This document shows, one piece after another, positions 1 through 39,793 of a stretch of 39,793 nucleotides of DNA. How positions within the stretch are numbered: the first letter of the stretch is position 1; every line of letters starts with the position of its first letter. Below the pieces are notes generated by a model. That model ran no database searches. It had not been told where the DNA came from and saw only the letters and a program-made list of their open reading frames with translations. A program made the translations under genes and the position numbers. Source of the DNA: Escherichia phage Ro45lw; sequence record NC_048136.1, one strand, 5' to 3'.

Positions 1-190
1 TCTCACAGTTCAAGAACCTCAAGTCTCCCCATAGGCCCTCTTTCAGTCCAGACTCAAGGCCCTACCCCTAGACCTTCGGTCTAAACCTCAAGTCTTTGAC
101 CCAAGGTTGACCCGAAGTCTGGACCGATATGGCCTATATCTAGTGGCTGGGACGATGGGTCGGGACTATATGTTGTGTCTCCGAGTCTCT
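1..190. repeat. Left direct terminal repeat (190 bp)
   Basis: Bases 1-190 recur exactly at 39604-39793 (read by eye); terminal redundancy is typical of T7-like genomes. Confidence 0.9.
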
Positions 191-12522: not shown

Positions 12523-14538
12523 ATGATTGACTTACAGAACATCTGGGGTTCGGACATCGAGACCAACGGTCTCCTTGACACCGTGTCCCAGTTCCACTGT
12601 GGGGTCCTGATTAACGCCGAGTCGAACGAGACCCTGAAGTATGGGGTGGTGCCGATGGTCGGTATCGTCGGTGGCTTTAAAGAGTATGTGGAGAAGGTCG
12701 AGCAGATTGCAGCGACTCCGCATGGACTGCTGGTCTTCCACAACGGTATTAACTATGACGTTCCAGCGATTGACATCCTGAAGCGTAAATACTTTGGGAA
12801 GCGTTTCAACTTTCCGAAGCAGAAGATGATAGACACGCTGGTCATGGGACGCCTGATGTATCCGAACATTAAGTTCTCGGACATTGGGGCTGTGAAAGCT
12901 GGTCGTCTTCCTCCGAAGATGATGGGCCGACAGTCGCTTGAAGCGTGGGGATACCGTCTCGGTGAGATGAAGGGCGAGTACAAGACCGATTACATTGCCA
13001 AGTGCAAGGCCGAGGGTATCGAATATAAAGCTGGGGACGAATGGTTGTTCCCTAGCCAAGAGATGCTGGACTATAACGTCCAAGACGTTGTGGTCACTCT
13101 GGCCTTGTTCAAGAGGTTCCTGACCGACAAGTTCTACTTCGGGACACCTGAAGCCGGACTTGAGGCTGTGTACGCGTTGCGTCTTGAACACGATGCTGCA
13201 TGGGCCTGTGCGAAGATGGAGCGCAACGGCTACCCGATGAACTCGGAGATAGTCGAAGGCTTGTATCGTGAGCTGTCTATTAAACGAGCTGAGCTGCTGG
13301 ACAAGCTGCGTTCGACCTTTGGTAGCTGGTATGCGCCGAAGGGTGGCAAGGAGTTCTTCAGACATCCGAGGACTGGAGTTGACCTGCCGAAGTACCCGCG
13401 AGTCGTGTACCCGAAGGTCGGGGCCATCTTCAAGAAGCCGAAGAACAAAGCACAGCGCTTAGGTCTTGAGCCTTGTGAGCGAGACTCCCGTGATACTATG
13501 GAAGGCGCACCGTTCACACCGATTACATTCGTTGAGTTTAATCCGGGTTCCGGGGACCACTTAGCGAGGGTGCTGATGGAACGCGGATGGGAGCCTGTGG
13601 ACTTCACGGAGACCGGGAAACCTGTAGTCGATGACGAGGCGCTGGAGAACGTCCATCTGGCAGACCCAGACGCTCAGGCTTGCGTAGAGCTGGTCCGAGA
13701 GTATCTGGTAGTCCAGAAGCGTATCGGTCAGGCGGCTGAAGGCAAGAACGCATGGCTGAAGCTCGTGGGTCCTGACGGAAGGATGCACGGGTCGATTAAT
13801 CCTTGTGGTGCTGTGACTGGACGTGCGACCCATAGTTCACCAAACATGGCTCAGGTCCCAGCTAACGGTGCCCCATACGGTGAGACTTGCCGTGGTGCTT
13901 TCGGTGCAGCGTGGAACAAGACTGACGGTAAGCCAGACCCTTGGATTCAAGTTGGTGTGGATGCTTCGGGTCTTGAGCTTCGTTGTCTGGGGAACCGTGC
14001 GTCCCCGTTCGATGGTGGTGAATATGCGAAGACTGTGGTCGAGGGAGACATCCACTGGGCTAATGCGGTCAACGCCGGGTTAGCACCTAACGTCCCACGC
14101 GACAAGTCCAGCCACGACCACGATGCTTTCCGTAACAACGCCAAGACGTTCATCTATGCGTTCCTGTATGGTGCAGGGGCCTCGAAGATTGGACTGATAG
14201 TCGGCGGTGGTAAGAAGGAAGGTTCGGCCCTGATGAAGAAATTCATTGAGGGTACGCCAGCTATCAAGGACCTGCGAGAGGCTGTGCAGAACACGCTAAT
14301 CTCCGAGTCCAAGTGGGTAGACGGTGAGAACATTGTGAAGTGGAAACGTCGCTGGCTGAAAGGTCTGGACGGTCGACGCATTCACATCCGGTCGCCACAC
14401 TCAGCACTTAACGCCTTGCTTCAGGGTGATGGTGCGGTTGTCTGTAAGCACTGGATTGTCGAGACCGAGCGTATGCTCGAAGAGGCCGGGTATGTCCACG
14501 GCTGGGATGGAGACTTTGCGTACATGGCATGGGTGCAT
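12523..14538 (+). CDS. 5: DNA polymerase, exon 1 (codons 1-672)
   Basis: Collinear with T7 gp5 (IETNGL, exonuclease motifs, thioredoxin-binding region, KTFIYAFLYGAG, HGWDGDFAYMAWVH); the reading frame hits TAA right after WVH although T7 continues. Confidence 0.9.
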
Positions 14539-15136
14539 TAACATCATGGTGCACATTAAATCTGGTGAACTCGGTGAACTCCTAATGGGACAATACCGAG
14601 CCAAGCCATAGGGAGGATGTATGAGAGGCAAGAAGTTAATTCTTGAGGCCACTGAGACTGGCTGCATAATCCCTACGTCACATAAATTGAATCAGGATGG
14701 ATACTTCCGAAAGAGGACTAACGGTGTCCTTGAGATGTATCATAGAACTGTATGGATTAAAGCTAATGGTCCAATACCTGACGGTTTCGAAGTAGACCAC
14801 AAGTGTCGTAATAGAGCTTGTTGCAACGTCGAACATCTACAAGTATTAGACCGGGACTCACACTTAGTCAAGACCAACCAAGAGCGATACGCTGCTAGGA
14901 AGCTAGAAGCACGAGACTACTGGGTAGAGACTGGGTGTACTGGAACGAAGTTAGCCGAAGTATTCAATGTGTCGTTCTCAGCCGCCTGTGGGTGGATTAG
15001 AGAGTGGAAGGCGTAGAGACTATCCGAAAGGAGTAGGGCCGTGGGTGAGATTCCCACGTAACCCGAAGCGCCAGACAGTCACCTCAAAGACTGATGATAT
15101 AGTCCGACACTTCCAGTAATGGGAGAATACAGAAAG
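14539..15136 (+). mobile_element. Putative group I intron (598 nt) carrying an HNH homing endonuclease gene
   Basis: Separates two segments that together encode an intact T7-like DNA polymerase; 5' exon ends in T, insert ends in G; P1 candidate 14533-14538/14549-14554; R-like AGAGACTA (15013-15020) and S-like GATATAGTCCGAC (15097-15109). Confidence 0.75.
14621..15016 (+). CDS. Intron-encoded HNH homing endonuclease, 131 aa
   Basis: RBS GGGAGG; HNH-type motif GPIPDGFEVDHKCRNRACCNVEHL; AGA/AGG/ATA-rich codon usage unlike neighbouring genes. Confidence 0.8.
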   Translation: MRGKKLILEATETGCIIPTSHKLNQDGYFRKRTNGVLEMYHRTVWIKANGPIPDGFEVDHKCRNRACCNVEHLQVLDRDSHLVKTNQERYAARKLEARDYWVETGCTGTKLAEVFNVSFSAACGWIREWKA

Positions 15137-15292
15137 GATGAGTTACAGATTGCTTGTCGTACTCAAGAAATAGCAGAACGTACAGTAGAAATTGCTCAAC
15201 TTGCTATGCGTAAGGTTGGTGAGTTCTATAACTTTAAATGTGTCCTTGATACCGAAGGTAAGATTGGACCAACTTGGAAGGAGTGTCACTAA
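15137..15292 (+). CDS. 5: DNA polymerase, exon 2 (C-terminal 51 aa)
   Basis: DELQIACRTQEIA...FKCVLDTEGKIGPTWKECH aligns with the T7 gp5 C-terminus DEIQVGCRTEEIA...FRCLLDTEGKMGPNWAICH. Confidence 0.8.
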   Translation, partial: DELQIACRTQEIAERTVEIAQLAMRKVGEFYNFKCVLDTEGKIGPTWKECH

Positions 15293-15582
15293 TGGCTATG
15301 ACCAAACGTATGCGAGTTTCATTCTCGCTGGGTGCTGTACTGTCTACTGAAGACGTTGAGCACTTCAAGAAGTCTCTCTGTGATTTGAGCCGTAAGGTTC
15401 TCAATGGTGAGAAGACCACTGGCTTCGAGCGTAAGATGGTCGAGGTAGGCGCTACAGAGGGTCTGGAAGCTGTAGTCGAGCTGGTCTTCAAGAAAGGTAT
15501 CGTCGATGGTCTGAAAGAGGACCTGAGCCACTACGCCGACCAACCGTCCTTCGGTGACTTCCGAGTGGAGTTCAAACGATGA
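15292..15582 (+). CDS. 5.5: gp5.5-like protein (H-NS-binding in T7)
   Basis: MAMTK... start and overall similarity to T7 gp5.5; ATG overlaps the polymerase stop. Confidence 0.75.
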   Translation: MAMTKRMRVSFSLGAVLSTEDVEHFKKSLCDLSRKVLNGEKTTGFERKMVEVGATEGLEAVVELVFKKGIVDGLKEDLSHYADQPSFGDFRVEFKR

Positions 15583-15788
15583 GCGAATACTTACGGGTCC
15601 TTGCGGCCCTCAAGTCCTGCCCGAAGACCTTTCAGTCAAACTATGTGCGCAACAACGCTGCACTGGTGGCTGAGGCTGCGAGTCGTGGACATCTGAGCTG
15701 TCTGTCTATGGATGGGCGTAACAACGGTGCGTGGGAGATTACCGCTGCTGGCACCAAGTTCCTGAACCAACATGGAGGCTGTCTATGA
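15579..15788 (+). CDS. 5.7: gp5.7-like protein
   Basis: LKSCPKTFQSNYVRNNAALVAEAASRGHLSCL...GGAWEITAAG is nearly identical to T7 gp5.7. Confidence 0.85.
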   Translation: MSEYLRVLAALKSCPKTFQSNYVRNNAALVAEAASRGHLSCLSMDGRNNGAWEITAAGTKFLNQHGGCL

Positions 15789-39603: not shown

Positions 39604-39793
39604 TCTCACAGTTCAAGAACCTCAAGTCTCCCCATAGGCCCTCTTTCAGTCCAGACTCAAGGCCCTACCCCTAGACCTTCGGTCTAAACCTCAAGTCTTT
39701 GACCCAAGGTTGACCCGAAGTCTGGACCGATATGGCCTATATCTAGTGGCTGGGACGATGGGTCGGGACTATATGTTGTGTCTCCGAGTCTCT
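39604..39793. repeat. Right direct terminal repeat (190 bp)
   Basis: Exact copy of bases 1-190. Confidence 0.9.

What the first reader, a model, noticed from the sequence alone, without database searches (positions are those of the whole stretch)
14539..15136. DNA polymerase gene split by a putative self-splicing group I intron carrying an HNH homing endonuclease
The T7-like polymerase ORF stops at 14539-14541 right after ...DGDFAYMAWVH. The conserved C-terminal 51 residues (DELQIACRTQEIA...FKCVLDTEGKIGPTWKECH) are encoded 598 bp downstream (15137-15292) in another frame. The insert has group I hallmarks: 5' exon ends in T (14538), insert ends in G (15136), a 6-bp P1 candidate (exon 14533-14538 GTGCAT with insert 14549-14554 GTGCAC, U-G at the splice site), and R-like AGAGACTA (15013-15020) and S-like GATATAGTCCGAC (15097-15109) elements able to form P7. 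It carries an HNH ORF with AGA/AGG/ATA-rich codons. Group I introns with HNH endonucleases are known in polymerase genes of some T7-like phages; the alternative is a polymerase expressed as two polypeptides.
Basis: partly seen in the sequence, partly recalled or inferred. Interest (0 to 1): 0.8.

Follow-up and report, generated by a model that had tools for sequence, protein, structure and literature searches.

The report
Known self-splicing intron in phage polymerase
The DNA polymerase gene of this K1F-like coliphage is interrupted by a 598-base self-splicing group I intron that carries its own HNH homing endonuclease; the same element is already annotated in phage K1F and was shown to splice in the T7 relatives PhiI and W31, so it is real but ordinary.

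Summary
Window 14539-15136 (598 nt) interrupts gene 5, a T7-type family-A DNA polymerase. Removing it gives a 723-aa protein colinear with intron-less relatives (…AWVH|DELQ…). The break lies between His653 and Asp654 in T7 numbering, inside catalytic motif C.

The insert is a subgroup IA2 group I intron. It has P1 with a U•G at the splice site, P10, P3-P9, P7.1/P7.2 joined by GUA, a terminal G and no P2. A 131-aa HNH endonuclease ORF (14621-15016) sits in the P6a loop.

Rfam Intron_gpI matches the full model but below its gathering score (35.8 vs 50 bits; the only hit in the window, E 1e-5). Two aligned homologs pass it (61 and 58.9 bits). On 13 diverged homologs my structure is 97% paired, against 36-48% for slid controls. 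Compensatory changes occur in 31 of 59 pairs.

The intron is 99.5% identical to K1F's, while 2 kb of flanking exon 1 is only 85.7% identical, which suggests recent spread by homing. GenBank K1F (2005) and CLB_P1 already annotate the polymerase as a two-piece join.

The split-polymerase alternative is weak: 6 of 13 homologs have no in-frame start codon ahead of exon 2.

The parts
12523..14538 (+). Exon 1 of gene 5 (family-A DNA polymerase), 672 codons, ending …AWVH (His = T7 His653)
   Evidence: ORF list; Pfam DNA_pol_A E 3.7e-27; colinear with Pisces and T7 polymerases
14539..15136 (+). Group I intron, subgroup IA2, 598 nt
   Evidence: Exact boundaries from alignment to intron-less phage Pisces; RF00028 full-model match 14529-15126, 35.8 bits; covariation
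14533..14538 (+). P1 5' strand (last 6 nt of exon 1, GUGCAU); U14538 forms the U•G wobble at the 5' splice site
   Evidence: Pairs with 14549-14554; 96% of cells paired, 3 of 6 pairs with compensatory change, U•G invariant in 13/13
14542..14545 (+). P10 guide (CAUC) in the P1 loop; pairs with the first 4 nt of exon 2 (GAUG, 15137-15140)
   Evidence: Sequence. The C-G pairs are conserved in 11-12 of 13; the weakest helix, 74-100% paired
14549..14554 (+). Internal guide sequence (GUGCAC), P1 3' strand
14561..14567 (+). P3 5' strand (UCUGGUG); pairs with 15069-15075
   Evidence: 7 bp, 100% paired in 13 homologs, 5 of 7 pairs with compensatory change
14570..14600 (+). P4 (14570-75 / 14595-600) enclosing P5 (14580-82 / 14588-90)
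   Evidence: MFE fold z = -3.98; 100% paired, compensatory changes in both helices
14601..14609 (+). P6 5' strand (CC 14601-02) and P6a 5' strand (CCAU 14606-09); partners are GG 15010-11 and GUGG 15004-07
   Evidence: Compensatory changes CC/GG to CU/AG or CG/CG, and CCAU/GUGG to ACUG/CAGU or CCUU/AAGG
14611..14617 (+). Shine-Dalgarno-like GGGAGGA for the intron ORF
   Evidence: Sequence, 3 nt upstream of ATG 14621
14621..15016 (+). HNH homing endonuclease gene (131 aa + TAG) in the P6a loop. Its last codons (E W K A stop) are also P6a', P6' and J6/7 of the ribozyme
   Evidence: Pfam HNH_3 57.6 bits; phrog_6254 E 2.5e-46; 74-76% identical to the ORF of 13a-type introns, 49.5% to free-standing T3 gene 5.3
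15018..15023 (+). P7 5' strand (GACUAU), part of the 'R' element; pairs with 15099-15104
   Evidence: 100% paired, 2 compensatory pairs (GGUCAU/AUGAUC in Arash); recovered by MFE fold
15024..15064 (+). P7.1 (CC-GAAA-GG, 15024-31), GUA linker (15033-35), P7.2 (15036-64): the subgroup IA2 signature
   Evidence: MFE fold; covariation in P7.2; GUA invariant in 13/13; criterion quoted in PMC3428280
15069..15075 (+). P3 3' strand (CGCCAGA)
15076..15093 (+). P8 hairpin (CAGUC…GACUG)
   Evidence: 4 of 5 pairs compensatory; MFE fold
15099..15104 (+). P7 3' strand (AUAGUC), part of the 'S' element GAUAUAGUCCGAC at 15096-15108
15110..15125 (+). P9 hairpin (CUUCC…GGGAG); contains the incidental in-frame ATG 15119
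   Evidence: Covariation; MFE fold; ATG replaced by ATA in 13a, Bas102 and BUCT788
15136..15136 (+). Terminal guanosine (omega-G) at the 3' splice site
   Evidence: G in all 13 homologs
15137..15292 (+). Exon 2 of gene 5: 51 codons DELQ…KECH plus TAA; begins with the catalytic Asp-Glu of motif C (T7 Asp654/Glu655)
   Evidence: Aligns to T7 gp5 residues 654-704; phrog_15971 DNA polymerase I

Best explanation
Window 14539-15136 is a mobile group I intron of subgroup IA2 in gene 5 (DNA polymerase) of a Kayfunavirus (K1F-like) phage.

Inferred from the family's established chemistry: in the gene-5 transcript the intron folds into the P1-P10 ribozyme. An external guanosine attacks after U14538, which is held in P1 by the guide GUGCAC. 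The freed exon 1 then attacks after G15136, with P10 aligning exon 2. This joins CAU|GAU and restores codons His653-Asp654 (T7 numbering) in catalytic motif C, giving a 723-aa polymerase.

Inferred by homology to I-TslI: the loop of P6a holds an independently translated 131-aa HNH endonuclease with its own Shine-Dalgarno sequence. It nicks or cuts intron-less polymerase alleles of co-infecting relatives, so recombinational repair copies the intron and nearby exon bases into them (homing).

Shown here: the exact boundaries, the restored reading frame, the fold supported by covariation, the intact HNH motif, and the mobility signature. Inferred: actual splicing and cleavage in this particular phage.
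For: (1) Precise 598-nt insertion relative to intron-less Pisces; the spliced product is 723 aa and colinear. The junction maps to T7 His653|Asp654.
(2) RF00028 matches the full model 1-253, E 2e-7 locally and 1e-5 window-wide, and is the only hit. Aligned homologs MQM1 and Arash exceed the gathering score (61 and 58.9 bits).
(3) Covariation on 13 diverged homologs: 97.0% of cells paired against 36-48% for slid controls; 31 of 59 pairs and 100 cells carry double changes; 0 of 500 shuffles reach this.
(4) MFE folding independently recovers P4/P5, P7, P7.1, P7.2, P8 and P9.
(5) HNH_3 domain and phrog_6254.
(6) The intron is 99.5% identical to K1F's while exon 1 is 85.7-89.7% identical. All intron-containing Studiervirinae share GGCATGGGTGCAT|GATGA, whereas intron-less alleles vary at wobble positions.
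(7) K1F DQ111067, CLB_P1, 13a and Bas102 annotate the polymerase as a two-piece join.
(8) Literature: PhiI/W31 introns are IA2, carry the HNH ORF in P6a, lie at Pol I site 881, and splice in vivo and in vitro (PMC3428280 citing Bonocora & Shub 2004). They are 601 nt with the 131-aa I-TslI (PMC1995217), the same dimensions as the 13a-type homologs here. A 'putative group I intron' of K1F is noted in PMC4925675.
Against: The window's own Rfam score (35.8 bits) is below the gathering score of 50, and nothing is reported at the default threshold. There are no RNA data for this phage. An in-frame ATG (15119) precedes exon 2, and some GenBank records annotate it as a separate 'gp5.4'. P10 is only 4 bp and is the least conserved helix. 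I could not obtain the PhiI/W31 sequences or the primary papers to compare directly.
Confidence: 0.95

Rival explanations
1. Split polymerase. The insert is a free-standing HNH endonuclease gene that has fractured gene 5. The enzyme is assembled from a 672-aa fragment and a 57-aa fragment translated from ATG 15119, without RNA splicing.
For: ATG 15119 is in frame with exon 2. K1F AM084414 and CLB_P1 list a 'gp5.4' CDS. Genes split by homing endonucleases are known in other phages (own knowledge; cf. PMC2677866, listed).
Against: No Shine-Dalgarno sequence lies upstream of ATG 15119, which sits inside the P9 hairpin. Six of 13 homologs (13a, Bas102, BUCT788, CHRF, RCIP0053, Vp_R1) have no in-frame ATG, GTG or TTG before exon 2. 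The cut would separate His653 from the catalytic Asp654. About 200 nt of non-coding flanks keep a ribozyme fold through compensatory changes, which is unexplained if no splicing occurs.
Confidence: 0.02
2. Decayed intron. The ribozyme fold is recognisable but this copy no longer splices efficiently on its own and depends on a host or phage factor, or the endonuclease is inactive and the element is no longer mobile.
For: Below-threshold Rfam score. No P2. No experimental data for K1F-type copies were retrievable; PMC4925675 still calls it 'putative'.
Against: All helices are intact in the window copy (every pair of my structure is a standard pair). The polymerase is essential. The HNH motif (DH…N…H) is intact and the ORF is full length. 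Near-identity (99.5-99.7%) of the intron across diverged backbones argues for recent mobility. The low Rfam score is explained by the 394-nt ORF insertion and the P7.1/P7.2 inserts: the ORF-poor relative Arash scores 58.9 bits.
Confidence: 0.03
3. Intein or programmed frameshift/bypass. The insert is removed at the protein level or skipped by the ribosome.
For: Inteins also target catalytic motifs of DNA polymerases (own knowledge).
Against: The insert opens with an in-frame TAA at 14539-14541, and its length is not a multiple of three (598 nt). The only protein domain found is a short HNH_3, with no intein splicing domain.
Confidence: 0

Closest known systems
Group I intron in gene 5 of coliphage K1F (GenBank DQ111067 / AM084414; Scholl & Merril 2005)
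   Same: Same site, same length (598 nt), 595/598 identical, same 131-aa HNH ORF. The polymerase CDS is annotated as a two-piece join.
   Different: Three substitutions in the intron. The surrounding polymerase exon 1 is only 85.7-89.7% identical, so the host phage is a different Kayfunavirus.
PhiI / W31 DNA polymerase introns encoding I-TslI (Bonocora & Shub 2004, 2009)
   Same: T7-like host, subgroup IA2, HNH ORF in P6a, site 881 (E. coli Pol I numbering) = His|Asp of motif C, 131-aa ORF. The 601-nt 13a-type introns, which match those dimensions, are about 80% identical to the window's intron and align helix for helix.
   Different: 598 vs 601 nt (3 nt shorter P1 loop). P5, P7.2 and P9 differ by compensatory pairs. 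Protein about 74-76% identical to 13a-type ORFs. No direct comparison with AY769989/AY769990 was possible, and splicing was shown for PhiI/W31 only.
Phage T3 gene 5.3, a free-standing HNH homing endonuclease next to an intron-less polymerase gene
   Same: Homologous HNH protein, 49.5% identity over residues 6-94, E 1e-23. From my own recollection of Bonocora & Shub 2009, it cuts the polymerase gene at the same position as I-TslI.
   Different: Not inside an intron; shorter C-terminus; lies downstream of gene 5.
IA2 introns with HNH nicking endonucleases in DNA polymerase genes of SPO1, SP82, Bastille and Pf-WMP3 (I-HmuI, I-HmuII, I-BasI, I-PfoP3I)
   Same: Same intron subgroup, same host gene family, HNH endonuclease in the intron.
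   Different: Different insertion sites (674/676 vs 881) and a different HNH subfamily. No PDB sequence match to I-HmuI at E ≤ 1.

Membership tests
Group I intron (Rfam RF00028) | Score at or above the family's curated gathering score (50 bits) | tested here: not met
   35.8 bits over the full model 1-253, E 2.2e-7 local and 1.1e-5 window-wide. The aligned homologs MQM1 (61 bits) and Arash (58.9 bits) do pass. The shortfall is explained by the 394-nt ORF in P6a, the missing P2 and the P7.1/P7.2 inserts.
Group I intron | P1 formed by the 5' exon end and an internal guide, with U•G at the 5' splice site; terminal G at the 3' splice site | tested here: met
   GUGCAU 14533-38 pairs with GUGCAC 14549-54. 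U•G occurs in 13/13 homologs and omega-G in 13/13.
Group I intron | Conserved core P3-P8 with the P3/P7 pseudoknot, supported by covariation | tested here: met
   P3, P4, P5, P6 and P7 are 100% paired and P8 is 96.9% paired. Compensatory changes occur in every one of these helices. Overall 97% paired against 36-48% for slid controls.
Group I intron | GTP-dependent self-splicing of the transcript | not testable with these tools
   Reported for the PhiI/W31 homologs only (PMC3428280 citing Bonocora & Shub 2004).
Subgroup IA2 | Extra helices P7.1 and P7.2 between P7 and P3', linked by G-U-A | tested here: met
   P7.1 at 15024-31, GUA at 15033-35 (invariant in 13/13), P7.2 at 15036-64. The criterion is as stated in PMC3428280.
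Mobile intron with HNH homing endonuclease (I-TslI-like) | Intact HNH nuclease domain encoded within a peripheral loop of the ribozyme | tested here: met
   Pfam HNH_3 57.6 bits against a cutoff of 24.8. The ORF 14621-15016 lies between P6a 5' (14606-09) and P6a 3' (15004-07).
Mobile intron with HNH homing endonuclease (I-TslI-like) | Sequence homology to I-TslI itself (AAV53690 / AAV53693) | not tested
   Those partial records are not in the searchable collections. The indirect link is the same ORF length (131 aa) and 74-76% identity to the ORFs of 601-nt 13a-type introns.
Mobile intron with HNH homing endonuclease (I-TslI-like) | Site-specific cleavage of intron-less alleles, and homing in mixed infection | not testable with these tools
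   Only a population signature is available. The intron is 99.5% identical to K1F's while flanking exon 1 is 85.7% identical, and the exon bases next to the site are uniform in intron-containing alleles.
Intein | In-frame insertion with an uninterrupted reading frame and intein splicing domains | tested here: not met
   TAA at the first intron codon; 598 nt is not a multiple of 3; no intein domain found.

The most novel reading that the evidence does not exclude
The most novel reading not strictly excluded is that, in this phage, part of the polymerase is made without splicing. A 672-aa N-terminal fragment and a 57-aa fragment started at ATG 15119 (created by a P9 base-pair variant specific to the K1F-type intron) would assemble across catalytic motif C. 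Alternatively, the 57-aa product from unspliced RNA could have a regulatory role of its own.
Probability: 0.02. Interest if true: 0.6.

Novelty: already known. Interest (0 to 1): 0.1.

Why it matters
For annotation: gene 5 of this genome must be written as join(12523..14538,15137..15292). The small 'gp5.4' and 50-aa ORFs inside or after the intron should not be called as genes. Several GenBank relatives (BUCT788, CHRF_10037, PT2, PE006, ECBP2, DT115P1, RCIP0053) still list a truncated polymerase plus a stray fragment.

For biology it adds one more natural copy of a well-understood mobile element. The near-identity of the intron across diverged Kayfunavirus backbones, and its presence at the same His|Asp-Glu site in polymerases of very different phage groups, illustrate ongoing homing. 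They do not open a new question.

Tried and rejected
- The Rfam gathering-threshold scan of the window found nothing. A permissive scan was needed.
- A PDB sequence search with the HNH protein found no meaningful relative (best hit E 0.17, an acyl-CoA thioesterase), so no structural link to I-HmuI could be made by sequence.
- The primary papers were not held: Bonocora & Shub 2004 PMC529087, Scholl & Merril 2005 PMC1317022, Bonocora & Shub 2009 PMC2856452. I relied on secondary citations and marked my own recollection as such. Two literature searches for the 2009 paper's content gave nothing usable.
- Rfam's own placement of the J6/7-P7 consensus at 14642-14652 was rejected in favour of 15015-15023. 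The latter pairs with 15099-15104 and covaries.
- An alternative P5 register (C14582-G14587 and so on) was rejected because BUCT788 breaks it.
- The intein and frameshift readings were rejected from the sequence.
- I did not use the large protein searches, structure prediction or the metagenome scans, because the phage collection already answered the question.

Full report
**What the window is.** The region is gene 5 of a K1F-like podovirus (Kayfunavirus). Window 14000-15700 is about 93-94% identical to K1F and CHX131. The window is a complete genome with an exact 190-bp direct terminal repeat.

**Checking the observation.**
- ORF 12523-14541 (672 aa, Pfam DNA_pol_A, E 3.7e-27) stops at TAA 14539-14541 straight after …DGDFAYMAWVH.
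- The missing C-terminus DELQIACRT…GPTWKECH is encoded at 15137-15289, in another frame.
- Alignment to the intron-less phage Pisces places the insertion exactly at 14539-15136 (598 nt). Deleting it gives a 723-aa protein colinear with the 723-aa Pisces polymerase.
- Against T7 gp5 structures the junction falls between His653 and Asp654. Exon 2 corresponds to residues 654-704. This is the His-Asp-Glu of motif C. From general knowledge, Asp654 is one of the two metal-binding carboxylates. It is also the site called 881 in E. coli Pol I numbering for the PhiI/W31 introns.
Its R and S elements are off by 2 and 1 nt (true positions 15015-22 and 15096-15108). Its 'ATG 15095' is really an in-frame TGA at 15095-97.
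- The codon-usage remark holds: AGA/AGG make up 6 of 11 Arg codons in the ORF against 5 of 36 in the polymerase, and GC is 46% against 55%.

**Is it a group I intron?**
- At Rfam's gathering score the window gives nothing.
- With permissive filters, Intron_gpI (RF00028) matches 14529-15126 over the whole model (1-253) at 35.8 bits. E is 2.2e-7 locally and 1.1e-5 for the whole window, where it is the only hit.
- I drew the structure by hand. P1 is 14533-38 / 14549-54. P10 is 14542-45 / 15137-40. P3 is 14561-67 / 15069-75. P4 is 14570-75 / 14595-600. P5 is 14580-82 / 14588-90.
- P6 is 14601-02 / 15010-11, and P6a is 14606-09 / 15004-07 with the ORF in its loop. P7 is 15018-23 / 15099-104.
- P7.1 is 15024-31, the GUA linker is 15033-35 and P7.2 is 15036-64. 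P8 is 15076-93, P9 is 15110-25 and omega-G is 15136 (coordinates). There is no P2.
- P7.1 and P7.2 joined by G-U-A is the stated hallmark of subgroup IA2 (PMC3428280).
- MFE folding of the pieces independently returns P4/P5, P7, P7.1, P7.2, P8 and P9.

**Covariation test.**
- A distant blastn of the intron found 61 phage records, with identities from 99.7% down to about 66%. I fetched twelve diverged copies.
- Eleven sit at the same CAT|GAY-GAR (His|Asp-Glu) site of family-A polymerases in very different phages: Teseptimavirus 13a and relatives, Aeromonas PT2 and MQM1, Vibrio Vp_R1 (Grimontviridae), ECBP2/PE006 (Gordonclarkvirinae), Edwardsiella DT115P1 and Klebsiella RCIP0053.
- The twelfth, in Salmonella phage Arash, is a 271-nt ORF-poor relative at a different site, motif B (…KSVTF|GLLYG…).
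- On the ORF-deleted core alignment A1 my structure is 97.0% paired, against 36-48% when partners are slid by 1-3 columns.
- Changes on both sides occur in 31 of 59 pairs (100 cells), and 0 of 500 shuffles reach any of the five measures.
- Every core helix (P1, P3-P9, P6a, P7.2) has compensatory pairs, including P6 (CC/GG to CU/AG or CG/CG) and P7 (GACUAU/AUAGUC to GGUCAU/AUGAUC).
- Two members of this alignment pass Rfam's gathering score on their own: MQM1 at 61 bits and Arash at 58.9 bits. The window's shortfall therefore reflects the 394-nt ORF insertion, the missing P2 and the P7.1/P7.2 inserts, not absence of the fold.

**The ORF.**
- 14621-15016 encodes 131 aa with an intact HNH_3 domain (57.6 bits; …EVDHKCRNRACCNVEHL…). 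It matches phrog_6254 'HNH endonuclease' at E 2.5e-46.
- GGGAGGA lies 3 nt upstream of its ATG.
- Its last codons, GAG UGG AAG GCG UAG, double as P6a', P6' and J6/7.
- It is 74-76% identical to the ORFs of the 601-nt 13a-type introns, and 49.5% identical to the free-standing T3 gene 5.3.
- PhiI and W31 introns are listed as 601 nt with the 131-aa I-TslI (PMC1995217). I-TslI is cited as a homing nicking enzyme (PMC8845596).

**Mobility signature.**
- The intron is 595/598 identical to K1F's. In contrast, the 2 kb of exon 1 is 85.7% identical, the last 300 nt 89.7%, the last 100 nt 94%, exon 2 96.8%, and the next 244 nt 86%.
- This gradient is what homing with co-conversion predicts.
- All intron-containing Studiervirinae alleles read GGCATGGGTGCAT|GATGA. 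Six intron-less alleles vary at the wobble positions: GTC CAC, GTT CAT, GTT CAC, GTA CAT, GTG CAT.

**Rival: two polypeptides.**
- ATG 15119 is in frame with exon 2, but it lies in the 3' strand of P9 and has no Shine-Dalgarno sequence upstream.
- In 13a, Bas102 and BUCT788 the same position reads ATA. In CHRF and RCIP0053 an in-frame TAG abuts exon 2, and in Vp_R1 an in-frame stop leaves only one non-start codon before it.
- In all, 6 of 13 homologs have no in-frame start after the last stop.
- A split here would separate His653 from the catalytic Asp654.
- Together with the selection evident on the ribozyme helices, I give this rival about 2%.
- Intein or frameshift readings are excluded by the immediate TAA and the length of 598 nt.

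**Comparison with what is known.**
- The K1F record DQ111067 (2005) already gives the polymerase as a two-piece join around a 'homing endonuclease'. So do CLB_P1, 13a and Bas102.
- According to PMC3428280, Bonocora & Shub 2004 described the PhiI and W31 introns in DNA polymerase genes: site 881, HNH endonuclease in P6a, used there as IA2 models. That paper's title calls the intron self-splicing. [quoted passage not shown] - Novelty: already known. Interest: low.

**Limits.**
- No RNA or protein data exist for this phage.
- I could not read the three primary papers.
- I could not align directly to AY769989/AY769990.

Noticed in passing
window 1-190 and 39604-39793: The first and last 190 bases are identical. 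The window is therefore a complete linear Kayfunavirus genome with a 190-bp direct terminal repeat.
   Followed up: partly
L005 (Citrobacter phage NS1, MN715150.2) 814-1479; polymerase site in L022: NS1 carries 51 nt of its own polymerase exon 1 plus the whole intron in the early region at the left end. This copy is 95.5% identical to the window. Its HNH ORF is 99% intact, but P7, P7.1 and P7.2 carry disruptive changes and indels, and it ends exactly at the 3' splice site. NS1's polymerase gene is intron-less, yet its flanks are of the intron-containing type (GTGCAC|GATGAGTTACAG). This is either precise intron loss with relocation into a free-standing endonuclease gene, or a misassembly. Unresolved.
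   Followed up: partly
L016 (Salmonella phage Arash, OQ632216.1) about 849-1120: A 271-nt relative of the same ribozyme, with a P2 and only a 16-codon ORF remnant in P6a. It sits at a different site (motif B, …KSVTF|GLLYG…) of a family-A polymerase that is annotated as two separate genes ('DNA polymerase nu' and 'theta'). It passes Rfam's gathering score (58.9 bits).
   Followed up: partly
window 14967-15119 (+) and 15119-15292 (+): The 50-aa ORF overlapping P7-P9 is annotated 'unknown' in K1F DQ111067. The 57-aa 'gp5.4' is annotated in K1F AM084414 and CLB_P1. The first has no family match and the second is just exon 2 plus six intron codons. They should not be annotated as genes.
   Followed up: yes
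L004, L007, L010, L012, L013, L014, L015: In many GenBank relatives (BUCT788, PT2, CHRF_10037, PE006, ECBP2, DT115P1, RCIP0053) the intron is not annotated. The polymerase is listed as truncated, often with a small separate 'DNA polymerase' or 'hypothetical' CDS for exon 2.
   Followed up: partly
window 15004-15016: Dual coding: the last four codons and the stop of the HNH gene (GAG UGG AAG GCG UAG) are also the 3' strands of P6a and P6 plus J6/7. The C-terminal …EWK motif and these helices are conserved together across homologs.
   Followed up: partly
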